Shown in pieces: positions 1 through 11,010 of a stretch of 64,000 nt of DNA. The notes under the pieces are model-generated. The model saw only the letters and a program-made list of their open reading frames with translations, had not been told where the DNA came from and did not search any database. A program made the translations under genes and the position numbers. How positions within the stretch are numbered: the stretch's first letter is position 1; each line of letters starts with the position of its first letter. This DNA is from a virus: the IMG/VR virus record IMGVR_UViG_3300025133_000028. One strand, written 5' to 3'.

Positions 1-656
1 GTTGTGTTCGGGACGAAATCCTTAACATTCCTTCTAAAGATGTTGACTACTCTGTTGAGTGTATGTCTTTTAACCATATGCGAGAATCTATTTTAGGACG
101 TAATGGTGAAATCTTTTTGGAAACTCCAGAATACTTTACTATTCGTGCTAAAGTTCCTGGTTTGGGTGCATGTGACTTTGTTATGTGTCGAAAAGACGGA
201 GACTACTCGGACGGTAGACGACCAGATAAAGTAATTCATGGTACTCTTCTCGATGACTTAAAACGAAGAGACTTTACGATGAATGCAATTGCTAAATGTG
301 AGCAGGGTAATTTGATTGACCCTTTTAATGGTAAAAACGACATTGAACGTGGTGAAATTTGCCCTGTTGGGAATGCAAAAGACAGGTTTTGTGAAGACTC
401 GCTACGTATGATTCGTGCTATTCGATTTAGCATTACCAAAAACATGAATATGAACCCAGAAATTGTGCAGTGTCTGTTTAATTCTGAGTTGATTGCAAAA
501 TTAAAAAATGTTTCTGGTGAAAGAATTCGCGAAGAACTCCGAAAGTGTTTTAAGTTTAACACGATGAAAACGTTAGAAATGTTGCGGGATTTTCCAGAAC
601 TTTCTAATGCTATTTTTGAATGTGGTCTGTGGTTAGAGCCTACATTTAAAAGTTAG
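1..656 (+). CDS. cca: tRNA nucleotidyltransferase (CCA-adding / poly(A) polymerase family), 5'-partial, short head+neck form
   Basis: Frame is open from the window edge: CVRD...KDVD catalytic motif, DLKRRDFTMNAIA, DPFNG, EDSLRMIRAIRF (EDxxR), SGERIREEL. Confidence 0.9.
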   Translation, partial: CVRDEILNIPSKDVDYSVECMSFNHMRESILGRNGEIFLETPEYFTIRAKVPGLGACDFVMCRKDGDYSDGRRPDKVIHGTLLDDLKRRDFTMNAIAKCEQGNLIDPFNGKNDIERGEICPVGNAKDRFCEDSLRMIRAIRFSITKNMNMNPEIVQCLFNSELIAKLKNVSGERIREELRKCFKFNTMKTLEMLRDFPELSNAIFECGLWLEPTFKS

Positions 657-659
657 GAT

Positions 660-729
660 GGGGCGGGTGGTGGTTCCACAGTTAAGGCTTATATCCATGA
701 CTTCCTAGATTCAATTTCTAGTCGCCCTA
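660..729 (+). tRNA. atypical tRNA-Ile(UAU)-like gene
   Basis: Acceptor GGGGCGG/TCGCCCT, A73; D hairpin GTGG-TGGTT-CCAC abuts the acceptor; 7-bp anticodon stem with one mismatch, loop CTTATAT; T arm CTAGA-TTCAATT-TCTAG; no CCA. Confidence 0.7.
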
Positions 730-744
730 CTGAAAGGAAAAGAT

Positions 745-1056
745 ATGTTTAAAAATCTACTAATTTTGAGTGCGGGATTTATACTCTATTCTATGTGCGT
801 TTACGGGTCTTGTTTTATATCTGGTAATGGGTCAGAAGTTAAAGCTGGCGTGTCTAGTGTAGGTCACAAAATTTACGTTGATATTCCAGAGGTTAAAGAT
901 TTACCAGTAGAGCAAGAACCAAAACTGCTAGAAGACACCGAACAGTACTCAGAAATTCCGCAACCTCAAACAGAACAGGTACAAACATACGAATACACAA
1001 AGTATACAAGATATAGGAAAAGGTCTTGTGTTAGAAGACTACTTGGAAGACGTTAA
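745..1056 (+). CDS. hypothetical secreted/membrane-anchored protein
   Basis: AAGGA RBS; N-terminal hydrophobic signal-like segment; Arg-rich C-terminus. Confidence 0.65.
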   Translation: MFKNLLILSAGFILYSMCVYGSCFISGNGSEVKAGVSSVGHKIYVDIPEVKDLPVEQEPKLLEDTEQYSEIPQPQTEQVQTYEYTKYTRYRKRSCVRRLLGRR

Positions 1057-1057
1057 C

Positions 1058-1132
1058 GCGAGTGTAACTCAGTCTGGCCAGAGTAACTGACTTCCAATCA
1101 GACGGTCGCAGGTTCAAATCCTGTTACTCGCA
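1058..1132 (+). tRNA. tRNA-Gly(UCC)
   Basis: Canonical cloverleaf: GCGAGTG/TACTCGC, D stem ACTC/GAGT, loop CTTCCAA, T arm GCAGG-TTCAAAT-CCTGT; no CCA. Confidence 0.93.
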
Positions 1133-1136
1133 AAAA

Positions 1137-1226
1137 ATGGTAAAAACAGAAATAAAAAAATGCGACGTTCTTTGTGCTAACTGTCATTTTAAACATCATT
1201 ACAACGAAAAAGAGAAGGAAGACTAA
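1137..1226 (+). pseudogene. C-terminal remnant of an HNH endonuclease (29 aa)
   Basis: Translates MVKTEIKKCDVLCANCHFKHHYNEKEKED*, matching the EIxKCxVLCANCH tail of phage HNH proteins. Confidence 0.65.
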
Positions 1227-1290
1227 ATCTTCAGGGCGGAGAGAGAAATTGCAAATTTCTTGTCAGACGGTTCGACTCCGTTCCTTCTTT
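1212..1290 (+). tRNA. atypical tRNA-Cys(GCA)-like gene
   Basis: GAGAAGG/CCTTCTT acceptor, U73; anticodon arm AGAAA-TTGCAAA-TTTCT; T arm GACGG-TTCGACT-CCGTT; 9-nt instead of 2-nt acceptor-D connector. Confidence 0.65.
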
Positions 1291-1297
1291 CTGTCGT

Positions 1298-1360
1298 GCG
1301 GTTGTGGTATTATGGGACATTGCCGATGTTCAGACCGGAGTTCGATTCTCCGCAGCCGCA
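1298..1360 (+). tRNA. D-arm-less tRNA-Gly(GCC)-like gene (63 nt)
   Basis: GCGGTTG/CAGCCGC acceptor; 10-nt loop replaces the D arm; GGACA-TTGCCGA-TGTTC; CGGAG-TTCGATT-CTCCG. Confidence 0.75.
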
Positions 1361-1415
1361 CTGAAAGTCGCAATTATAATTGTAAACAATTGGAAAAACT
1401 AAAGGAGAAAGTTTA

Positions 1416-1946
1416 ATGGGAATGGTGAATGTTCGTACATTAGTCGCTGGTGATACTTTTGTACATAACGAAAAAGAATGGACAGTAAAACCGTCTGGTA
1501 GAGCTACTACAGAAGATGGCGATATGCTTATTGTTAGGCAAGAAAGTTTTGACGTATTTGTTAAGGACGATGTTATTAGCAAAGAAGACCCCTACGCAAG
1601 CGTAGAAAAAGACGAAAAGGTTGTAGAATATACGTTTCCTGATGACAACCATTATGTCGAATCTGTTACTTTACAAGAAGGCAAAGTGTGGGCTAATCAA
1701 AAAGACGCAGATAAAGTTCCAGAGTTTGATGAAGAAGCTGGACAAAAAGCATTAGAAGCTGTTGAAAATGGTGATTTTGTTACTGGTGAAGAACTTGAGC
1801 AAGAAGTTCAAAAAGCAGTAGAAGAAGGTTTTGCTCTAGTAGAAACTAGTGATGATTTAGACGTATCAAAAGACGATAATACCGATTCTGTAGAAGATGT
1901 AACAGAAGGAGATAGTAGTGACGAAAGCGACGAAGACGAAAATTAA
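1416..1946 (+). CDS. acidic hypothetical protein
   Basis: AAGGAG RBS; 176 aa, very D/E-rich C-terminus. Confidence 0.75.
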   Translation: MGMVNVRTLVAGDTFVHNEKEWTVKPSGRATTEDGDMLIVRQESFDVFVKDDVISKEDPYASVEKDEKVVEYTFPDDNHYVESVTLQEGKVWANQKDADKVPEFDEEAGQKALEAVENGDFVTGEELEQEVQKAVEEGFALVETSDDLDVSKDDNTDSVEDVTEGDSSDESDEDEN

Positions 1947-2220
1947 TCCAATGTCTGATTATGTAGCTGTTAAAATTGATACAGCAGAAACACATACTCC
2001 TGGTGGATTGGCCTTGCCTGCTAGTTCTCAAGACAAACCTCAAGTTGGAACAGTAGTTGCTATTGGTCCTGGTGCGTTACACGATGGAAAACGCGGGAAT
2101 ATGCAAGTTTGCGTAAAAGACAGAGTGTATGTTAATAAATACTCTGGTAATGAAGTAGAAGTTAATAATGAGACATTGCTTATTATCAGACAAAACGATA
2201 TTTTGTTAAGCTTGTCTTAA
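1918..2220 (+). CDS. groES: co-chaperonin GroES
   Basis: INPMSDYVAV, TPGGLALP mobile loop, GTVVAIGPG, KYSGNEV, IIRQNDIL; GTG start with AAGGAG. Confidence 0.93.
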   Translation: MTKATKTKINPMSDYVAVKIDTAETHTPGGLALPASSQDKPQVGTVVAIGPGALHDGKRGNMQVCVKDRVYVNKYSGNEVEVNNETLLIIRQNDILLSLS

Positions 2221-2227
2221 CTCGGCT

Positions 2228-2296
2228 GCTGGTGCGTCGTGGCGGCGACTTGTTCTTGTAAAACGAGTTTTTAGGATTCGATTTTCTACACCAGCT
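2228..2296 (+). tRNA. atypical tRNA-Thr(UGU)-like gene
   Basis: GCTGGTG/CACCAGC; D hairpin CGTCG-TGG-CGGCG abuts the acceptor; 6-bp anticodon stem CTTGTT/AACGAG, loop CTTGTAA; T arm TAGGA-TTCGATT-TTCTA. Confidence 0.72.
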
Positions 2297-2331
2297 TTTC
2301 CTAAAAAATTGGTATTTTATCAATTTTTTAG

Positions 2332-2360
2332 TTGTCAAACCGGCAAAAACCGTGTATACT
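2332..2360 (+). promoter_or_regulatory. sigma70-type promoter
   Basis: TTGTCA-N17-TATACT; predicted start ~2366-2367 coincides with the first hairpin RNA. Confidence 0.75.
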
Positions 2361-2366
2361 TTATTA

Positions 2367-2428
2367 GAGCAGTGAGGCAACGGGTTACTTCTCGAATTAG
2401 AAACCAACACCCATGCCAATGTACTCTC
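2367..2428 (+). ncRNA. Y RNA-like small RNA, copy 1
   Basis: Terminal helix GAG(C)AGT/ACTCTC with a single bulged C, then GGCA/TGCC and GGGT/ACCC helices; upstream of Ro60. Confidence 0.65.
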
Positions 2429-2444
2429 ATTTTATAGAAAAAAT

Positions 2445-2516
2445 TAGGCAGTGAACGAAACGGGTTACTTCAAAATTTTACCTTTTTAAGACCAAACCCT
2501 TTCATTAATTCTCCTA
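2445..2516 (+). ncRNA. Y RNA-like small RNA, copy 2
   Basis: TAGG(C)AG/CTCCTA bulged-C helix, GAAA/TTTC, GGGTT/AACCC; shares GCAGTGA and AACGGGTTACTTC with copy 1. Confidence 0.65.
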
Positions 2517-2528
2517 TTTTTATAGTAT

Positions 2529-2573
2529 GAGGGTTTACAACCAGATATTTCTGGTCTGTAGCCCTCTTTTTTT
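2529..2573 (+). terminator. intrinsic terminator-like hairpin between the small RNAs and Ro60
   Basis: GAGGG..TACAACCAGA-TATT-TCTGGT.TGTA.CCCTC followed by T7. Confidence 0.7.
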
Positions 2574-2595
2574 ATCTCTCGTAAGGAGTAGTGAA

Positions 2596-4179
2596 ATGCC
2601 AGTTAATCAAACACGACCAAAAAACAAAGTCAACAACCTAAATCCTCATACTAACCATATGAATGGTTTAAGTTTTGATATCTCAAATCCCCTACATAAC
2701 CTAAGTTGTGCAGCTTCTAGCTGTTTCTTCGGGGAACCACAATATTATTTCCCAACTAAAGATTCTCGTAAGAAATCTACCAAGATTCAAGTGCAAATGC
2801 ACACTCGTGGTCTGATAGAAGAATATTTAGACGCAATCACTCCATCTGAGTGGTATTACGACAATACTCCAGCTAAATTGCTTGAAAAAGCTATTGACAA
2901 AGCGTTAGACTGGAACCCAGAAGCTACCCTAACGGAAGCTGTGCGTTTGCGTAATAAGGAAAATATCAGAACCACACCACAAGTTATCTTGGTGCGTGCT
3001 GCTAATCACGTTAAGCTTAAAGGTACTGGATTGGTACGTAAATACGGAACAAATATTGTTAAAAGAGCAGACGAATTGTCTGTTTGTCTAGCATATCAGC
3101 TTCAGGCATACGGAAAACCAATTCCAAACTCTTTGAAAAAAGTACTACGTGATGGACTTGATAGGTTTACAGATTGCCAATTAGCTAAGTATCGTATGGA
3201 AAATCGTACTGTAAAAACAGTAGACGTAATGAACATGGTACACCCAAGTCGTACAGACAAAATCGACAAACTAGCTAAAGGTATGCTAAAAACCACAGGT
3301 AATACCTGGGAATCTATCCGTAGTAATGGTGGTAGCTGGGAAGATGCTATCGCTGTAATGGGACATATGGCTTTGTTAAGAAACTTGCGTAATTTTGGCA
3401 AGAACGAAGTAAATCCAGACCTATATTTGGACAAGTTGGTAAATACCACCGTTGGTGGAAAACAACTACCATTCAGATATTTTTCTGCGTATAACGCTTT
3501 GAAAGAAGCTGATTTTAACAACCCAAGAGTATTGGACGCTGTAGAAAACTGCTTAAACATTAGCATTTCTAACATTCCATCAATCAAGGGAAAAACTATG
3601 TCATTGTGTGATAATAGCGGGTCTGCACACGGAGCTATGACTTCTAGTGCTGGTACTATGACTATGGCTACCATTGGTAACCTAACTGGTGTTATTACCG
3701 GAATTATGGCAGATGAAGGTTATGTTGGTACTTTTGGTGATAGACTAGAAGTAACACCTATTCGTAAGAACTCTAGTGTGTTTGACCAACTAAAAACCGT
3801 TAATAAAACTGGACGCAGCGTTGGTGCTGCTACAGAAAATGGTGTGTGGTTATTTTGGGACAAAGCTATTAAAACCAAAGAACACTGGGACAATGTATTT
3901 ATCTACTCTGATATGCAAGCTGGTCACGGTGGATTGTATGGTTGTAACGCTAATGAATACTCAAATTATCAATGGGGTGGACGACATATCCACGTTCCTA
4001 AGTTAATTTCTGAATACAGAAACAAAGTTAACAAAAACGTTAACGTATTTTTGGTTCAAACTGCGGGTTACCAAGACACTATCGTTCCCGAATTTTACGA
4101 TAGAACTTACATCCTTGGTGGATGGGGTGATGGTATTTTACGTTTTGCGGCTACTATGATTGCGGCTAATAACCGATAG
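2596..4179 (+). CDS. rsr: Ro60/Rsr TROVE-domain RNA-binding protein with vWA domain
   Basis: MALLRNLRN and QLPFRYFSAY TROVE motifs; MIDAS DNSGS ... SDMQ; start placed at ATG 2596 after AAGGAG. Confidence 0.9.
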   Translation: MPVNQTRPKNKVNNLNPHTNHMNGLSFDISNPLHNLSCAASSCFFGEPQYYFPTKDSRKKSTKIQVQMHTRGLIEEYLDAITPSEWYYDNTPAKLLEKAIDKALDWNPEATLTEAVRLRNKENIRTTPQVILVRAANHVKLKGTGLVRKYGTNIVKRADELSVCLAYQLQAYGKPIPNSLKKVLRDGLDRFTDCQLAKYRMENRTVKTVDVMNMVHPSRTDKIDKLAKGMLKTTGNTWESIRSNGGSWEDAIAVMGHMALLRNLRNFGKNEVNPDLYLDKLVNTTVGGKQLPFRYFSAYNALKEADFNNPRVLDAVENCLNISISNIPSIKGKTMSLCDNSGSAHGAMTSSAGTMTMATIGNLTGVITGIMADEGYVGTFGDRLEVTPIRKNSSVFDQLKTVNKTGRSVGAATENGVWLFWDKAIKTKEHWDNVFIYSDMQAGHGGLYGCNANEYSNYQWGGRHIHVPKLISEYRNKVNKNVNVFLVQTAGYQDTIVPEFYDRTYILGGWGDGILRFAATMIAANNR

Positions 4180-4189
4180 GAGAATTATT

Positions 4190-4447
4190 ATGGCAACTTT
4201 GCAATGGAACAGACCAATACAACAAAAAGCTTTGTATTTTTCGGACATTCAAGTAAACGAGTCCTTTAAAATTACATCACCACACTCTCATGGAGCAGTC
4301 TACAGAAAAGTAGAAGACAGACATGGAAAAGGATTCTCTATGGAAGAAGCTACGGGTAAAATATATGACCCAACACCTTCTCCTATAGAACGAGTTGATG
4401 TAGAAGTTCATATTTGTAGGCCAAAACCGCAAATTAAAGGATATTAA
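4190..4447 (+). CDS. hypothetical protein
   Basis: AGGAG RBS before ATG 4190. Confidence 0.7.
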   Translation: MATLQWNRPIQQKALYFSDIQVNESFKITSPHSHGAVYRKVEDRHGKGFSMEEATGKIYDPTPSPIERVDVEVHICRPKPQIKGY

Positions 4448-4497
4448 AGAGTCAGGTCAGTTGTCGGTAAACTCCCGGTTATGAGGAACCGTCTTTT

Positions 4498-4568
4498 GCT
4501 TCTGTGGTGTAATGGTAACATAAAATCTTGGTACGATTTAGATTCGGTTTCGACTACCGACAGAAGAT
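4498..4568 (+). tRNA. tRNA-Thr(GGU)
   Basis: Cloverleaf with G1.A72 mismatch; D stem GTGT/ACAT; AAATC-TTGGTAC-GATTT; TCGGT-TTCGACT-ACCGA; no CCA. Confidence 0.8.
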
Positions 4569-4580
4569 TTAGGGATAATT

Positions 4581-4823
4581 ATGTGGGAAACAAGACAGTG
4601 TAACATGTGCCTATCGCACAACGAATTGTATATGGACAACCCACTGTGGATGGCATGGCAGTGTTGGAGTTGTCAAGACAACTATTGGCGTGATGAACAA
4701 ACTCATTATGACTACCTTATACTCCACGGTCTAACAGGAACGGAAGCTAATGCTAGAATAAATTCCGCCCACCATACTATATTTTTCCTTAATGGCAGTC
4801 CTGAAAGGACTGAAGACGTATGA
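4581..4823 (+). CDS. hypothetical protein, two CxxC motifs
   Basis: CNMC and CWSC; RBS present. Confidence 0.6.
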   Translation: MWETRQCNMCLSHNELYMDNPLWMAWQCWSCQDNYWRDEQTHYDYLILHGLTGTEANARINSAHHTIFFLNGSPERTEDV

Positions 4824-5023
4824 ACGAACATGAATTAATGAAACTCAAATTTGACGGTGGTTGGTATTACATGCAAATGTATGACGGAACTTTCGTTGTT
4901 GGGTATTTGTTAGACATGAAAACTGGCGTGTTTGGAATAATTTATTCAGTCGTGTGTGCTGACGATAAAACAATTGTGGATGTTGACCCCGAAGAAATAG
5001 AAAGTGTGATGCAACTTATTTAG
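4820..5023 (+). CDS. hypothetical protein
   Basis: ATGA overlap with upstream ORF. Confidence 0.55.
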   Translation: MNEHELMKLKFDGGWYYMQMYDGTFVVGYLLDMKTGVFGIIYSVVCADDKTIVDVDPEEIESVMQLI

Positions 5024-7151: not shown

Positions 7152-7383
7152 GCCGGGGACAAAAAACCTTTGGGTAAATCCCAAAGGATAAAGGCAACAC
7201 ACCCTCGGATTGCTTAATCGCTCTTAGCAAATTAAATTACTTACTGACTATCTTGTCAGAATACTTGGGTTCGACTCCCACAATTTATAAATAGGCAAAT
7301 AACTATGGTACTTGAAGCTAAGATTTAAACGTGTTGTCTCAAAACCAACAAGACTCGTCTTTTAAAAGAGGCGAGTCTTTTCT
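7152..7383 (+). ncRNA. structured RNA / leader of unknown class upstream of nrdJ
   Basis: Hairpins CCTTTGGG/CCCAAAGG, TTGCT/AGCAA, CTGAC/GTCAG, T-loop TGGG-TTCGACT-CCCA; long-range AGGCAACAC/GTGTTGTCT; bounded by promoter and terminator. Confidence 0.55.
7350..7383 (+). terminator. intrinsic terminator
   Basis: AAGACTCGTCT/AGGCGAGTCTT stem followed by a T run. Confidence 0.75.
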
Positions 7384-7413: not shown

Positions 7414-10400
7414 ATGCACACTTATGAAGAGGCGTATGAGACAAGTAAAGAATATTTTGGTGGTAATGAGTTAGCAGCTAAGGTTTTTGTAGATAAATAT
7501 TCGTTAAAAAATGAGATAGGTGAAATTCTTGAAAAAACACCTACAAGTATGCATAAAAGATTGGCTAAAGAATTTGCTCGAATAGAAAAAAAGAAATTCA
7601 AAACACCATTAACCAAAGAAGAAATATTTGACTTGTTTGATAATTTTAAATATATTGTTCCTCAAGGTAGTCCAATGAGTGGGATTGGCAATAACTATAA
7701 CTATCAATCATTAGGTAATTGTTTTACTTTAGGCAATCATCCTGTAGATTCATATGGCGGTATTTTATATGCTGACCAAATGTTAGTACAGTTAAGTAAA
7801 AGGCGATGCGGTGTTGGTGCTCATATAAACAATATTAGACCAAAAGGTTTGCCAACAAAAAATGCAGCTATTACTACAGATGGTATTTCTGTATTTATGG
7901 AGCGATTCTCTAACAGTATTCGCGAAGTCGCACAATCAGGCAGAAGAGGAGCACTTCTTTTAGGATTGTCTGCATACCATCCAGAGATAGAAACTTTTAT
8001 CAATATCAAAAAAGATAAGACAAAAGTTACAGGTGCTAATCTATCTGTGCTATTACCTAATAATTTTATACAAGCGGTGGAACAAGACGAAGAATACGAA
8101 CAAAAATGGCCAATTGATTCTGAGACTCCGTTAGTTTCTCAAATGGTTAACGCTAAAAAAATATGGAATCAAATCATTAATGCTGCTTGGGAATCTGCCG
8201 AACCAGGACTATTGTTTATTGACAACATACAAAAATATAGCACTTCACACTGTTATGGTAAGGTAGATGAAAGGTTTTTAGACCTAATCCCAAATCCGTG
8301 TTTTCCAGCAAGCGAATATTTACTAACAAATAAAGGATATGTATCTTTTGGACAATTGTTTAAACAAGGTAATAATAATAAGATATTAGCAGACGCTCGT
8401 ATATCTTATAATAATGTTGGAGAAGAACGTGTTGAAAATTGGAAAATAAACTCCCAAAAACACGGAACAATTCAAAGAAATGCTAGTCATGTATTTTTAA
8501 CACAAAAAAAAGCTGACACAATAGAAATAGAAACCAAAAAAGGATTTAAACTGTCGTGTACGCCAGACCATCATATTGCAACAACTACAGGTATGATTGA
8601 AGCAAGTCAATTAATTAAAAATGATGATATACTAATATCGATTCCTAATCAAAATACAAAATCAATTAAAAACAGATTACCAAAAACAGAAAAAGAAATA
8701 TTGTCATTTCTAATAGGTTTGATTTCTGGAGACGGATGTATTGATAATAGTAAAAAAAATATACATCTTGATTTTTGGGAAGATGATAGATATCGTATGA
8801 CAGACATAGTTGTAAAGCTTATTAAAAAACTTCACAATAAATTAGGAGACAGATATGGATTGTCTAACAGAAAATTAAAAATATCTAGAATTTATGATGT
8901 ACAAAAAGAAAGAAAAATAAGAATTTCATCTTCTTGGTTGTTTAATGTACTTTCAGAATATGGTTTTAATAAACAAACAAAACATATGGTTCCTGATTTT
9001 ATATTAAATAATTGTGTAGGTAATATAGGCAAATATTATTTGTCTGGTATGATGTATACAGATGGAACTATTGGAGGAAGTGTAAGTTCTGGATATTCGG
9101 TAAGATTAAATCAAAGTAATAAAAAAATGCTACATAAAATACAAATGATTTTTCATGCTAATGGTATTTTAATGGGTTTATACAAAAGAAGAGACGAACA
9201 AAACCGTATGATGCCGGACGGCAAAGGCGGATATAAATCATATAAAACAAAAACAAATTATGAATTAATTAGTATATGTGGTAGTATAGTTAAATATATG
9301 TCAGAAATAGGGTTTTTTGGAGACAAAAACAAAGAGTCTAAATTTAATAAAAATCATAATTATAGAATCAAATTAAATTACACAGATAAAATTAAAAAAA
9401 TAACATTTAAAAATCAAGAACCAGTATTTTGCATTAAAGAAGATATTGGAAGGAATATTATTGTTAATGGTATTTCTGCAAGAAGATGCGGCGAAGTACC
9501 AATGGGATTTGATGCATGTAGGCTAATGTTATTAAATCTGTTTTCTTATGTAGATAAACCTTTTACTAAATCCGCTAAGTTTGATTACAAAAAATTTGAT
9601 GAACATTGTATTACAGCACAAAGACTAATGGATGACATGGTAGATTTAGAATTAGAAAAAATGGATAAGATAATCAAAAAGATTAAATCTGACCCAGAAC
9701 CTGATAATATTAAACAATTAGAACTTGAAATGTGGGAGTCATATAAAGAAACTGCCGAACTAGGACGTAGAACTGGACTTGGTATTACTGGACTTGGCGA
9801 TTGTTTAGCTGCTTTAGGAATTCAATACGGTTCTAAAAAATCTATTAGAAAAACAGAAGAAATATACAAGAGAATGGCTATATCTTCTATGAAATCGTCA
9901 TGTCTACTAGCTAAAGAACTTGGTGCTTTTCCTTTGTTTAATCCCACCGTTGAACAAGATAACATTTTCATGAATCGTATTTTTGATGCGTCTGAAGAAG
10001 TTAAAATTTTACACCAACAGTATGGCAGACGTAATATTTCCTTGACAACCACCGCTCCTGCCGGTAGTGTTAGTATTATGACCCAAACGACTTCTGGTAT
10101 TGAACCTGCTTTTATGTTAGAATATACCCGAAGAAGAAAAATAAATAACGATTCTGAAAAATGTGATTTCGTGGATGCTTCTGGCGATAAGTGGGAACAT
10201 AACAAAGTAGTCCATCATCACTTGCAGACATGGCGGGATTTAAGTCAAAAAGACAATATTGAGGATTCTCCGTATCATAAGGCTACTTCAAACGACATTG
10301 ACTGGAAAGCTAGTGTAGAATTACAGTCTGTTGCTCAAAAGTGGATTACTCACTCTATTAGTAAAACATGTAATATTCCTAGCGATTCCACAAAAGAACT

Positions 10401-11010
10401 AGTTGCGGAAATTTACTTGGCTGCTGCTAAAAGTGGATGTAAAGGCTTTACTGTATATCGCGATGGTTGTAGAGACGGTGTTTTAGTTGCTGACACAGAA
10501 GTAAAGTTACCACCCAATAGGCCAAAAGAACTAGATTGTGATGTTTACCACACTACAGTTCGCGGACAAGAATATTTTGTGTTAGTTGGATTGTACAAAA
10601 ACAAACCATACGAAGTATTCGCTGGTAAGAATGGTATTATTCACAAAAAAGTTAAGACTGGCAAAATTACTAGGAAACGTAAAGATTTTTACAAAGCGGT
10701 GTTTGATGACGAAAATGAACTATCTCCAATTACGGCATGTATGGAAGAAATGGAAGAATGTATTTCCAGACTTACGTCTAGTCTTTTACGTAGTGGTTCA
10801 GATATGAACTTTATTGTAACACAACTAGAAAAGGTTGGTGAAAGACAAACAGAAATGCATACTTTTGCTAAGTGTCTTGCTCGCGTACTCAAAAAGTATA
10901 TTCCAGACGGGACAGAAACTGGAGATAAATGCCCAGAATGTGGTGATAAACTTATTAGGGAAAGTGGTTGCCAATCGTGTAAATCATGCCCTTATGCTAA
11001 ATGTGGTTAA
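7414..11010 (+). CDS. nrdJ: class II (B12-dependent) ribonucleotide reductase, intein-containing, with C-terminal TSCPD-like and Zn-ribbon region
   Basis: PQGSPM, SLGNCF, QSGRRGA, AEPGLLF, NP|CGE, RRTGLGITG, APAGSVS, TSGIEP, SISKTCN, KGFTVYRDG. Confidence 0.93.
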   Translation: MHTYEEAYETSKEYFGGNELAAKVFVDKYSLKNEIGEILEKTPTSMHKRLAKEFARIEKKKFKTPLTKEEIFDLFDNFKYIVPQGSPMSGIGNNYNYQSLGNCFTLGNHPVDSYGGILYADQMLVQLSKRRCGVGAHINNIRPKGLPTKNAAITTDGISVFMERFSNSIREVAQSGRRGALLLGLSAYHPEIETFINIKKDKTKVTGANLSVLLPNNFIQAVEQDEEYEQKWPIDSETPLVSQMVNAKKIWNQIINAAWESAEPGLLFIDNIQKYSTSHCYGKVDERFLDLIPNPCFPASEYLLTNKGYVSFGQLFKQGNNNKILADARISYNNVGEERVENWKINSQKHGTIQRNASHVFLTQKKADTIEIETKKGFKLSCTPDHHIATTTGMIEASQLIKNDDILISIPNQNTKSIKNRLPKTEKEILSFLIGLISGDGCIDNSKKNIHLDFWEDDRYRMTDIVVKLIKKLHNKLGDRYGLSNRKLKISRIYDVQKERKIRISSSWLFNVLSEYGFNKQTKHMVPDFILNNCVGNIGKYYLSGMMYTDGTIGGSVSSGYSVRLNQSNKKMLHKIQMIFHANGILMGLYKRRDEQNRMMPDGKGGYKSYKTKTNYELISICGSIVKYMSEIGFFGDKNKESKFNKNHNYRIKLNYTDKIKKITFKNQEPVFCIKEDIGRNIIVNGISARRCGEVPMGFDACRLMLLNLFSYVDKPFTKSAKFDYKKFDEHCITAQRLMDDMVDLELEKMDKIIKKIKSDPEPDNIKQLELEMWESYKETAELGRRTGLGITGLGDCLAALGIQYGSKKSIRKTEEIYKRMAISSMKSSCLLAKELGAFPLFNPTVEQDNIFMNRIFDASEEVKILHQQYGRRNISLTTTAPAGSVSIMTQTTSGIEPAFMLEYTRRRKINNDSEKCDFVDASGDKWEHNKVVHHHLQTWRDLSQKDNIEDSPYHKATSNDIDWKASVELQSVAQKWITHSISKTCNIPSDSTKELVAEIYLAAAKSGCKGFTVYRDGCRDGVLVADTEVKLPPNRPKELDCDVYHTTVRGQEYFVLVGLYKNKPYEVFAGKNGIIHKKVKTGKITRKRKDFYKAVFDDENELSPITACMEEMEECISRLTSSLLRSGSDMNFIVTQLEKVGERQTEMHTFAKCLARVLKKYIPDGTETGDKCPECGDKLIRESGCQSCKSCPYAKCG
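8299..9486 (+). mobile_element. intein (396 aa) with LAGLIDADG homing endonuclease, inserted at the RNR catalytic Cys
   Basis: Interrupts NP/CGE; starts CFPASE; block B CTPDH; LIGLISGDG and LSGMMYTDG; ends VNGISARR|C; more AT-rich than flanks. Confidence 0.9.

What the first reader, a model, noticed from the sequence alone, without database searches (positions are those of the whole stretch)
660..2296. Two tRNAs (Ile-UAU at 660, Thr-UGU at 2228) share the same non-canonical architecture
Seen: in both, the D hairpin follows the acceptor stem with 0-1 connector nt, the D loop is 3-5 nt, the anticodon stem extends to 6-7 bp and the variable loop is 3-4 nt, although the sequences are unrelated. 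Known: this geometry resembles tRNA-Pyl and mammalian mitochondrial tRNA-Ser(UGA). Inference: the same compensated fold occurring twice argues for a selected structural class rather than decay, and standard scanners may miss it.
Basis: partly seen in the sequence, partly recalled or inferred. Interest (0 to 1): 0.75.

Follow-up and report, generated by a model that had tools for sequence, protein, structure and literature searches.

The report
Compact, mitochondria-like tRNAs in a phage
An uncultured 164-kb phage carries isoleucine and threonine tRNA genes whose D arm is shrunk and whose anticodon stem is lengthened, much as in one mitochondrial tRNA; they look like working tRNAs that standard gene finders miss, but this has not been tested experimentally.

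Summary
Window 660-729 (anticodon UAU) and 2228-2296 (UGU) fold as minimum-energy cloverleafs. Both have a 13-nt D hairpin, a 7-8-position anticodon helix and only 2-3 unpaired variable-loop nucleotides.

- **Not chance:** a strict structural descriptor finds only these two in the 163.6-kb genome and none in 40 shuffles.
- **Missed by scanners:** Rfam's tRNA model misses both; ARAGORN finds Ile only in mitochondrial mode.
- **A third member:** a CAU tRNA lies about 1 kb upstream of the window.
- **Same families elsewhere:** in a distant phage (G001), Ile, CAU and Thr-UGU are again among the D-arm-reduced tRNAs, with fully compensated stem changes.
- **Conserved contacts:** every reduced D loop keeps GG and every T loop keeps TTCR.
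- **Codon demand:** ATA and ACA are heavily used, and no tRNA gene encodes CCA, beside a phage CCA-adding enzyme.

Best reading (about 0.62): functional compact decoders, closest to mitochondrial tRNA-Ser(UCN).

Caveats:
- Thr-UGU has a competing near-canonical D-arm register.
- The three tRNAs are not identical in design.
- There are no intermediate-distance homologues.
- There are no expression data.
- A neighbouring tRNA-Gly(GCC) shows real decay, an 8-nt deletion.

Other first-stage notes on this same genome flagged the CAU/UAU/UGU family; I found no such note on other DNA.

The parts
660..729 (+). Compact tRNA-Ile(UAU) gene: acceptor 660-666/722-728, D hairpin 667-679 (loop TGGTT), anticodon helix 680-687/695-702, anticodon TAT 690-692, variable loop 703-704, T arm 705-721 (loop TTCAATT), discriminator A at 729; no encoded CCA (trailer CTG).
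   Evidence: The minimum-energy fold is the cloverleaf and pair probabilities are 0.8-0.9. It is a descriptor hit, with 0 hits in shuffles. It is found only by ARAGORN -mt and not by Rfam. It starts 4 nt after the stop codon of the CCA-enzyme gene.
2228..2296 (+). Compact tRNA-Thr(UGU) gene: acceptor 2228-2234/2289-2295, D hairpin 2235-2247, anticodon stem 2248-2254/2262-2268, anticodon TGT 2257-2259, variable loop 2269-2271, T arm 2272-2288 (loop TTCGATT), discriminator T at 2296; no encoded CCA (trailer TTT).
   Evidence: ARAGORN calls tRNA-Thr with the anticodon at position 30. The minimum-energy fold is the cloverleaf with 24 bp and no mismatch. Two D-arm registers compete. Rfam does not find it.
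3..656 (+). C-terminal 217 codons of a tRNA nucleotidyltransferase (CCA-adding enzyme) gene; the full 227-aa ORF is L001:874-1557. It ends just upstream of the Ile tRNA.
   Evidence: Pfam PolyA_pol head domain, E=1.9e-18. tblastn hits are annotated as phage tRNA nucleotidyltransferases. None of the 9 tRNA genes encodes CCA.
1058..1132 (+). Canonical tRNA-Gly(UCC), for comparison within the same cluster.
   Evidence: Rfam 63.5 bits and an ARAGORN call.
1298..1360 (+). tRNA-Gly(GCC) that has lost 8 nt (positions 8-15: the connector and the 5' strand of the D stem). It is a real decay product and leaves the 3' D strand unpaired.
   Evidence: Aligned with the full-length copy in strain contig L082 (ARAGORN tRNA-Gly gcc 8383-8454) and with L003:3483-3555. 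It still scores 41.7 bits in Rfam.
4498..4568 (+). Canonical tRNA-Thr(GGU). It shares G1, C2-G71, U3-A70 and discriminator U73 with the compact Thr(UGU).
   Evidence: Rfam 48.4 bits, ARAGORN, acceptor ends.
1951..2220 (+). GroES (Cpn10) gene. Its stop codon lies 8 nt before the Thr(UGU) tRNA, so the tRNA is probably cut out of the same transcript.
   Evidence: Pfam Cpn10, E=1.9e-23. No promoter-like site lies between the gene and the tRNA.
2596..4179 (+). Ro60/TROVE-domain RNA-binding protein gene, 300 nt downstream of Thr(UGU). This is context only; a link to the tRNAs is not shown.
   Evidence: Pfam TROVE, E=2e-9. It is 40% identical to the Bacillus phage G RNA-binding protein and about 60% identical to many TROVE proteins.

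Best explanation
Both elements are real, probably functional elongator tRNA genes of a lytic-type phage. One reads AUA (Ile) and the other ACA (Thr).

They belong to a phage tRNA lineage in which the D arm has been progressively shortened. The rest of the molecule stayed intact or was re-paired. The acceptor/T-arm stack (7+5 bp) is canonical, so the surfaces used by EF-Tu, RNase P and the CCA enzyme are unchanged. The anticodon loop is canonical (U33, anticodon, A37). The tiny D loop keeps GG and the T loop keeps TTCRA, so the elbow contact can still form. Nucleotides that are normally position 26 and its neighbours pair with 44-46, giving a 7-8-position anticodon helix.

They are transcribed together with the upstream protein genes, excised by host RNase P and 3' nucleases, and completed by the phage's own CCA-adding enzyme. 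They then supply A-ending codons that the phage uses heavily.

Shown: the sequence and structure, that it is not chance, the recurrence in another phage, codon demand, and the absence of encoded CCA. Inferred: transcription, processing, aminoacylation and use on the ribosome.
For: 1. Structure beyond chance: these are the only two strict descriptor hits in the genome, with 0 in 40 shuffles. With one mismatch or fewer allowed, 5 compact hits appear in 1.4 Mb and 0 in shuffles.

2. All three compact tRNAs of this phage fold as the minimum-energy cloverleaf, whereas four of the five normal-length ones examined (Leu, Arg, Gly-UCC, Thr-GGU) do not.

3. Recurrence with compensation in phage G001, whose CCA enzyme is 58% identical:
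- Of its 36 tRNAs, 7 are D-arm-reduced, and they include Thr-UGU, CAU and Ile-GAU. The chance that three named families all fall in that set is about 0.005.
- Own versus G001, pairs changed on both sides with pairing kept in the acceptor, anticodon-core and T stems: CAU 4, 1 and 2; Thr-UGU 2, 3 and 5; Ile (own UAU versus G001 GAU) 4, 2 and 3.

4. All four phage tRNA-Ile examined (own UAU, G001 UAU, G001 GAU, L183 GAU) share G1.U72, A73 and a closed 5-6-nt D loop of the form NGGTT or TGGTAA.

5. GG is kept in all six reduced D loops.

6. Codon use: ATA is 29% of Ile, ACA 39% of Thr (the top Thr codon), AGA 49% of Arg and TTA 36% of Leu. The phage's anticodon set (UAU, UGU, UCU, UAA, UUU, UCC) matches these.

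7. Thr-UGU carries G1-C72, C2-G71, G35 and U36, and shares U73 with the canonical Thr-GGU. That these are ThrRS identity elements is from memory.

8. No tRNA gene encodes CCA, and a CCA-adding enzyme gene abuts the Ile tRNA.

9. E. coli HisRS, EF-Tu and ribosomes accept even a D-arm-less tRNA without adaptation (PMC11551756).
Against: - There is no transcript, end-mapping, modification or charging evidence.
- There are no homologues at intermediate distance. Ten strain contigs are 99-100% identical overall, so the invariance of the tRNAs says nothing. The neighbouring ORF is an ORFan. Pattern scans of viral and genome collections found no further copies.
- Orthology with the G001 tRNAs rests on loops, identity positions and partial gene order, not on a tree.
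- The G001 tRNA-Ile(UAU) has normal connectors, a 5-bp anticodon stem and a 5-nt variable loop. The zero-connector form is therefore specific to this phage and could be a recent, mildly defective derivative.
- Decay does occur in this very cluster.
- Ile has an A.A mismatch in the anticodon stem.
- An unmodified U34 in tRNA-Ile(UAU) risks reading AUG.
Confidence: 0.62

Rival explanations
1. They are tRNA-shaped RNAs with a non-decoding job. They might act as processing punctuation that lets RNase P and RNase Z cut the CCA-enzyme and GroES messages out of a polycistronic transcript. They might be decoys for host anticodon nucleases. They might be ligands of the neighbouring Ro60/Y-RNA particle or of the CCA enzyme.
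For: - Each sits within 4-8 nt of the stop codon of the upstream gene, with no promoter in between.
- The locus also holds Ro60/TROVE, candidate Y RNAs and a CCA enzyme.
- Bacterial Y RNAs next to Ro60 mimic tRNA and are RNase P and CCA-enzyme substrates (PMC4201824).
- Phage tRNAs are known counter-measures to tRNA-cleaving defences (abstract of PMC12409363).
Against: - The anticodon loops are fully canonical (7 nt, U33, A37). The anticodons match the phage's most used A-ending codons. A pure processing signal or decoy would not need this.
- No Rfam Y-RNA family matches.
- The Ro60 link is not general. Phage contigs with TROVE (L094, L095) carry only canonical tRNA arrays. The records with reduced tRNAs (G001-G003) show no TROVE, though they are 46-79% complete.
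- Processing and decoding roles are not exclusive.
Confidence: 0.17
2. They are decaying pseudo-tRNAs. Deletions in the D arm have left non-functional relics that have not yet been purged.
For: - A neighbouring tRNA-Gly(GCC) lost 8 nt of its D arm in this strain, while a 99%-identical strain keeps it intact.
- A 1.05-kb indel and a mosaic tRNA-Gly(UCC) allele show that the cluster is in flux.
- The Cys(GCA)-like element at 1216-1291 scores only 19 bits.
- In each family, this phage's copy is the shortest.
Against: - The true decay product leaves an unpaired orphan strand. The compact tRNAs have every stem paired (24 bp with 0 mismatches; 23 bp with 1 mismatch). They also gain extra Watson-Crick pairs at 26:44 and beyond, and they keep GG, TTCRA, U33 and R37.
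- The reduced state is shared with a distant phage, with compensatory substitutions. That implies long persistence under constraint.
- Shuffles give no such structures.
Confidence: 0.13
3. The structure is less exotic than claimed, at least for Thr-UGU. It may be an ordinary L-shaped tRNA with a 2-nt connector (C8 G9), a 4-bp D stem, a minimal 4-nt D loop (GGCG) and a C26-G44 pair, so the two tRNAs do not share one architecture.
For: - The alternative register is only 3.1 kcal/mol less stable and holds about one third of the ensemble.
- ARAGORN draws a 2-connector form.
- The 3' half has canonical spacing.
- Tertiary contacts, which the folding program ignores, could favour this register.
Against: - Even in this register the D loop is 3 nt shorter than the canonical minimum.
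- The invariant U8 and A14 are absent.
- Rfam's tRNA model gives no score.
- Ile-UAU has no 2-connector parse at all.
Confidence: 0.3

Closest known systems
Mammalian mitochondrial tRNA-Ser(UCN), the 'type I' mitochondrial tRNA
   Same: - At most 1 nt between the acceptor and D stems.
- A small D loop that still contains G18 G19.
- An anticodon stem longer than 5 bp.
- A variable loop of about 3 nt, with T-Psi-C kept.
- It is reported to retain the L shape (PMC7609411).
   Different: - Here there are 0 connectors (certain for Ile), a 7-8-position anticodon helix rather than 6 bp, and different anticodons and amino acids.
- The genes are phage-encoded and must work with a bacterial translation apparatus, not a co-evolved mitochondrial one.
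tRNA-Pyl, especially the Methanomethylophilus alvus form
   Same: - An elongated anticodon stem, a 3-nt variable region and a 4-5-nt D loop.
- M. alvus tRNA-Pyl has no nucleotide between the acceptor and D stems, and a broken anticodon stem (PMC7609411). Ile-UAU resembles this with its A.A mismatch.
   Different: tRNA-Pyl has a CUA anticodon and G73, lacks G18 G19 and T-Psi-C, and needs PylRS. These tRNAs have sense anticodons and A73 or U73, and they keep GG and TTC.
Phage T4-type tRNA sets that supplement A-ending codons
   Same: The anticodon repertoire is alike: Ile for AUA, Thr UGU, Arg UCU, Leu UAA and Gly UCC. The genes are clustered, co-transcribed and excised by host enzymes. This comparison is from my own knowledge of T4, not tested here.
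   Different: T4 tRNAs are canonical cloverleafs. Here 3 of about 10 are compact and 3 more have deviant D and T loops. Only 4 reach Rfam's threshold.
YrlA-type bacterial and phage Y RNAs with a tRNA-like domain beside Ro60
   Same: They lie next to a Ro60/TROVE gene, have a tRNA-like shape, and are possible RNase P and CCA-enzyme substrates (PMC4201824).
   Different: As I recall it (the passages read do not state this), YrlA has its Ro60-binding helix in place of a decoding anticodon arm. These elements have free acceptor ends and a canonical anticodon loop, and no Rfam Y-RNA match.

Membership tests
Canonical class I elongator tRNA (Rfam RF00005) | 7-bp acceptor stem, 5-bp T stem and a 7-nt T loop with T54-T55-C56-R57-A58 | tested here: met
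   Both have perfect 7/5 stems (G.U pairs allowed) and T loops TTCAATT and TTCGATT.
Canonical class I elongator tRNA (Rfam RF00005) | 7-nt anticodon loop with U33 and a purine at 37 | tested here: met
   The loops are CTTATAT and CTTGTAA.
Canonical class I elongator tRNA (Rfam RF00005) | 2-nt connector with U8; D loop of 7 nt or more with A14 and G18 G19 | tested here: not met
   Ile has 0 connectors and a 5-nt loop. Thr has 0 connectors with a 3-nt loop, or C8 G9 with a 4-nt loop. GG is present, but U8 and A14 are not.
Canonical class I elongator tRNA (Rfam RF00005) | 5-bp anticodon stem, unpaired position 26, 4-5-nt variable loop | tested here: not met
   Position 26 and 1-2 upstream nucleotides pair with 44-46, leaving 2-3 unpaired variable-loop nucleotides.
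Canonical class I elongator tRNA (Rfam RF00005) | Score at or above the family's gathering threshold (29 bits) | tested here: not met
   There is no RF00005 hit at E<=10 on 110-nt slices or in the whole genome.
Canonical class I elongator tRNA (Rfam RF00005) | Aminoacylation and use in translation | not testable with these tools
   This needs tRNA sequencing, charging assays or genetics.
Type I mitochondrial tRNA (tRNA-Ser(UCN)-like architecture) | At most 1 connector, a small D loop with GG, an anticodon stem of 6 bp or more, a variable loop of about 3 nt, and T-Psi-C kept | tested here: met
   Parses were compared with the feature list in PMC7609411. This is a resemblance in architecture, not in descent.
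Type I mitochondrial tRNA (tRNA-Ser(UCN)-like architecture) | Mitochondrial gene, UGA anticodon, serine identity | tested here: not met
   The record is a phage genome, CheckV 100% complete, and the anticodons are UAU and UGU.
tRNA-Pyl | CUA anticodon, G73, and no G18 G19 or T-Psi-C | tested here: not met
   The anticodons are UAU and UGU, the discriminators are A and U, and GG and TTC are present.
YrlA-type Y RNA tRNA-like domain | A Ro60-binding helix in place of the anticodon arm, the GNCGAAN0-1G motif, and a match to Rfam Y-RNA models | tested here: not met
   No Y-RNA family hit at E<=10 in 400-5000. A canonical anticodon arm is present.

The most novel reading that the evidence does not exclude
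A lineage of large uncultured phages has evolved its own reduced, mitochondria-like tRNA architecture for several sense codons (Ile, Thr, the CAU tRNA, and Arg in another phage), and these tRNAs work on bacterial ribosomes. The shrinkage would be adaptive. It removes the D-arm and variable-loop features that host tRNA-targeting nucleases, or modification-dependent quality control, recognise. In this phage it would be backed by a dedicated maintenance kit: its own CCA-adding enzyme, and a Ro60/Y-RNA particle that could divert host PNPase. PNPase is the enzyme that limited use of a D-arm-less tRNA in E. coli (PMC11551756).
Probability: 0.15. Interest if true: 0.85.

Novelty: new variant of a known kind. 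Interest (0 to 1): 0.6.

Why it matters
[quoted passage not shown] Natural compact tRNAs with sense anticodons, made to work in a bacterial cytoplasm, would show how much D-arm the bacterial aminoacyl-tRNA synthetases, EF-Tu and ribosome really need. They could also offer ready-made orthogonal-looking scaffolds for genetic-code engineering.

There is a practical consequence too. Only 4 of about 10 tRNA-like genes in this phage pass Rfam's threshold, and ARAGORN at default settings finds 5, so phage tRNA counts from standard pipelines may be too low in such lineages. The graded series of D-arm lengths (Ile 27, 25, 23 nt before position 27; CAU 24, 23; Thr-UGU 23, 22) is a rare non-mitochondrial example of reductive tRNA evolution with structural re-pairing.

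Tried and rejected
1. **Close homologues for covariation.** The search for related loci with the CCA enzyme or the TROVE protein alone found nothing. The two protein searches showed a gap between 100% and 65% identity. ORF 1416-1946 is an ORFan. Ten contigs carrying the identical CCA protein are 99-100% identical overall, so their invariant tRNAs are uninformative.

2. **Contigs of the nearest CCA and TROVE relatives (L092-L095, L180-L183).** Synteny is not conserved and the tRNAs are mostly canonical. Only L183 gave a useful tRNA-Ile.

3. **Pattern scans.**
- The own-type Ile pattern in viral contigs gave 4 chance hits in coding DNA.
- The Thr loop pattern gave 0 hits in viral contigs. In GTDB genomes it gave 8 hits: 7 lie in non-tRNA Flavobacteriales-type DNA (5 are one conserved stretch) and 1 is a canonical tRNA-Thr.
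- The tRNA-Ile(GAU) acceptor pattern found only the G001 lineage twice.

4. **Metagenome scan with the CCA alignment.** It returned only more distant relatives: 36 canonical tRNAs and no compact ones in 0.88 Mb.

5. **MAFFT alignments of the compact tRNAs (A2, A3).** They were structurally inconsistent in the D region, so I built no covariance model and counted pairs with my own anchored script instead.

6. **blastn against cultured phages.** It matched only the canonical tRNA-Gly.

7. **Ro60 co-occurrence with reduced tRNAs.** Not supported.

8. **Literature.** Five full-text searches found no description of phage tRNAs with extended anticodon stems. Absence from this library is not proof.
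Full report
**Setting.** The window is bases 63,997-127,996 of a 163,651-bp virus record that CheckV rates 100% complete. The genome is 36.6% G+C. The first 4.6 kb of the window is the downstream end of a loose tRNA region that begins about 10.7 kb upstream. In order it holds:
- the 3' part of a tRNA nucleotidyltransferase (CCA-adding enzyme) gene, 3-656;
- the Ile candidate, 660-729;
- a 103-codon ORF;
- tRNA-Gly(UCC), 1058-1132;
- a weak Cys(GCA)-like element, 1216-1291;
- a shortened tRNA-Gly(GCC), 1298-1360;
- an ORFan, 1416-1946;
- GroES, 1951-2220;
- the Thr candidate, 2228-2296;
- a promoter-like site at 2332-2360, followed by candidate Y RNAs flagged by other first-stage notes;
- a Ro60/TROVE gene, 2596-4179;
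- tRNA-Thr(GGU), 4498-4568.

RNAfold's minimum-energy structure of each candidate is a four-arm cloverleaf, with z-scores of -2.3 and -2.7 against shuffles.
- *Ile-UAU.* The acceptor stem runs straight into a 4-bp D stem closed by TGGTT. This is followed without a spacer by an 8-position anticodon helix (7 pairs plus one A.A), the loop CTTATAT, two unpaired nucleotides, a normal T arm (TTCAATT) and A73. Pair probabilities are 0.8-0.9, and no two-connector alternative exists.
- *Thr-UGU.* It has 24 base pairs and no mismatch, but its D region can pair in two registers. The zero-connector form has a 5-bp stem and a TGG loop, at -22.6 kcal/mol and about 60% of the ensemble. The near-canonical form has C8 G9, a 4-bp stem and a GGCG loop, at -19.5 kcal/mol and about 33%.
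- *Where the shortening lies.* In both tRNAs the 3' half has standard spacing. The abnormality is a 5' segment of only 22-23 nt before position 27. Of 123 phage tRNAs parsed the same way, 115 have 25-29 nt.

**Not chance, and missed by scanners.** I wrote a descriptor that requires perfect acceptor, D and T stems, a TTCR T loop, U33 and R37.
- It finds exactly these two elements on both strands of the genome and none in 40 dinucleotide shuffles of it.
- Allowing one mismatch adds a third compact tRNA with anticodon CAU, at genome 62,960-63,028 (L082:4992-5060), about 1 kb upstream of the window. Shuffles of 1.4 Mb still give nothing.
- Rfam's tRNA model reports neither candidate, at gathering threshold, at E<=10 on 4.6 kb, on 110-nt slices, or genome-wide.
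- ARAGORN finds Thr at default settings (anticodon at position 30) but finds Ile only in mitochondrial mode.
- Across the genome only 4 of about 10 tRNA-like genes pass Rfam's cut-off.

**Comparative evidence.** Close relatives do not exist in the collections I could search.
- The adjacent CCA enzyme and TROVE protein have nothing between 100% and 65% identity, and the ORF between the tRNAs is an ORFan.
- Ten contigs from other samples carry identical tRNAs, but they are 99-100% identical overall, so this says nothing about constraint.
- Compact tRNAs are rare in about 2.2 Mb of loci around related CCA-enzyme or TROVE genes. About 100 tRNAs are canonical and two are compact: Ile-GAU in L003/G001 and Arg-UCU in L012/G002.

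The informative comparison is phage G001 (119 kb, 42.6% G+C, CCA enzyme 58% identical).
- Of its 36 tRNAs, seven are D-arm-reduced. They include Thr-UGU, CAU and Ile-GAU, the same families that are compact in this phage. The chance that three named families all fall in that set is about 0.005.
- The two CAU tRNAs are plainly homologous. They share 14 identical nucleotides across the anticodon arm and a near-identical T arm. They differ at four acceptor pairs, each changed on both sides with pairing kept.
- The two Thr-UGU tRNAs share both loops and U73. They differ at 2, 3 and 5 fully compensated pairs in the acceptor, anticodon and T stems.
- Four phage tRNA-Ile (own UAU, G001 UAU, G001 GAU, L183 GAU) share the unusual G1.U72 pair, A73 and a closed 5-6-nt D loop (TGGTT, TGGTT, AGGTT, TGGTAA). 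Their stems differ completely but stay paired.
- G001's tRNA-Ile(UAU) has normal connectors, a 5-bp anticodon stem and a 5-nt variable loop. The mini D loop is therefore old in this lineage, while the zero-connector, long-anticodon-helix form is the extreme reached in the present phage.
- Lengths before position 27 form a series: Ile 27 (L183), 25 (G001 GAU), 23 (own); CAU 24, 23; Thr-UGU 23, 22.
- All six reduced D loops keep GG, and all T loops keep TTCR. This argues that the elbow contact is still under selection.

**What decay looks like here.** The element at 1298-1360 is a tRNA-Gly(GCC) that has lost exactly 8 nt (positions 8-15). The reference is the full-length copy in strain contig L082 and a homologue in L003. 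The deletion leaves the 3' strand of the D stem unpaired. The same strains differ by a 1.05-kb indel that truncates an HNH-like ORF, and by a mosaic tRNA-Gly(UCC) allele. The cluster is therefore in flux. The compact tRNAs look different from this product: every helix is paired, and extra Watson-Crick pairs appear at 26:44 and beyond.

**Evidence bearing on function.**
- Codon use in 161 ORFs: ATA is 29% of Ile codons, ACA 39% of Thr (the commonest), AGA 49% of Arg, TTA 36% of Leu and GGA 32% of Gly. The phage's anticodons are UAU, UGU, UCU, UAA, UUU and UCC. This is the classical pattern of phage tRNA sets, T4 for example (my own knowledge).
- Thr-UGU has G1-C72, C2-G71, G35 and U36, and shares U3-A70 and U73 with the canonical Thr-GGU. 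That these are ThrRS identity elements is from memory.
- None of the nine tRNA genes encodes CCA, six have C-T after the discriminator, and the CCA-enzyme gene ends just upstream of the Ile tRNA.
- There is no promoter-like site before either tRNA. They are probably excised from the CCA-enzyme and GroES transcripts.
- Published work shows that E. coli's synthetase, EF-Tu and ribosome accept even a tRNA with no D arm, and that PNPase degradation was the barrier (PMC11551756).

**Interpretation.**
- Most likely (about 0.62): these are working decoders with a reduced D arm and a re-paired core.
- Rival 1, about 0.17: tRNA-shaped RNAs with a non-decoding role (processing signals, nuclease decoys, Ro60 or CCA-enzyme ligands).
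- Rival 2, about 0.13: non-functional relics.
- A separate structural question applies to Thr only: whether it adopts the near-canonical register, about 0.3.
- A functional link to the neighbouring Ro60 gene is attractive but unsupported. TROVE-bearing phage contigs L094 and L095 carry only canonical tRNAs, and the records with reduced tRNAs show no TROVE, though they are incomplete.

**Comparison with known classes.** By the feature list in PMC7609411 the architecture is closest to mammalian mitochondrial tRNA-Ser(UCN). That tRNA has at most one connector, a small D loop with GG, a longer anticodon stem, a 3-nt variable loop and T-Psi-C. The M. alvus tRNA-Pyl has no connector and a broken anticodon stem. 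The phage tRNAs fail the defining features of tRNA-Pyl (CUA, G73, loss of GG and T-Psi-C). They are not mitochondrial, and they fail several defining features of the canonical Rfam tRNA family. Five full-text literature searches found no report of such tRNAs in phages.

**Verdict.** This is a real and statistically robust structural variant of tRNA. It recurs in a small set of phage lineages and is plausibly functional, but this is unproven. I score it as a new variant of a known kind, with interest 0.6.

Noticed in passing
window 1298-1360; L082:8383-8454; L003:3483-3555: The '63-nt D-armless tRNA-Gly(GCC)' is an 8-nt deletion derivative (positions 8-15). A full-length tRNA is kept in a 99%-identical strain, and a homologue exists in a distant phage. 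It still scores 41.7 bits in Rfam.
   Followed up: yes
window 1137-1226; L082:7877-8311: Only the last 29 codons (with a CxxCH motif) remain of a 144-aa Cys-rich HNH-like ORF that is intact in strains L082 and L088. The window strain lacks about 1.05 kb, carrying four small ORFs, inside the tRNA cluster. Pfam gave no hit for the intact ORF.
   Followed up: partly
window 1058-1132 vs L082:7086-7164: tRNA-Gly(UCC) is only about 85% identical between strains that are 99.4% identical overall. The D stem shows compensatory changes (ACTC/GAGT versus GCCC/GGC). This is a recombined or mosaic patch.
   Followed up: partly
genome G000:C1 53325-53398, 54414-54486, 62782-62853 (upstream of the window; the last is also L082:4814-4885): tRNA-Leu(UAA), Lys(UUU) and Arg(UCU) have normal length, but their T loops read N-G-C (TGCAAAT, GGCGGTT, AGCGTAA) instead of T-T-C. 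Their D loops carry AG instead of GG, a possible co-varied elbow. Leu has a short variable loop. Rfam misses all three.
   Followed up: no
window 1216-1291: The Cys(GCA)-like element has a mismatched acceptor stem and a weak D arm (Rfam 19 bits; ARAGORN finds it only at lowered threshold). It is 100% conserved among strains. Its status is unclear.
   Followed up: no
window 2297-2595: A promoter-like TTGTCA-17-TATACT at 2332-2360 is followed by two repeats that share GCAGTGA...AACGGGTTACTTC, ahead of the TROVE gene. There is a weak Rfam hit to sRNA_1300 (24 bits) and no Y-RNA family hit. Other first-stage notes read these as Y-RNA-like genes.
   Followed up: no
window 7227-7289: A 16.5-bit sub-threshold RF00005 match lies upstream of the ribonucleotide reductase gene. 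This is the T-loop-bearing structured RNA noted by another first-stage reader.
   Followed up: no
window 7414-11010: The ribonucleotide reductase gene is interrupted by an intein with a LAGLIDADG domain (Pfam).
   Followed up: no
G001 (record of L003) 24342-51811: This 119-kb phage record has 35 ARAGORN tRNAs plus one that ARAGORN misses. Seven are D-arm-reduced: Ala-UGC, Trp-CCA, Arg-ACG (66 nt), Thr-UGU, CAU, Ser-GGA and Ile-GAU. It is worth a study of its own.
   Followed up: partly
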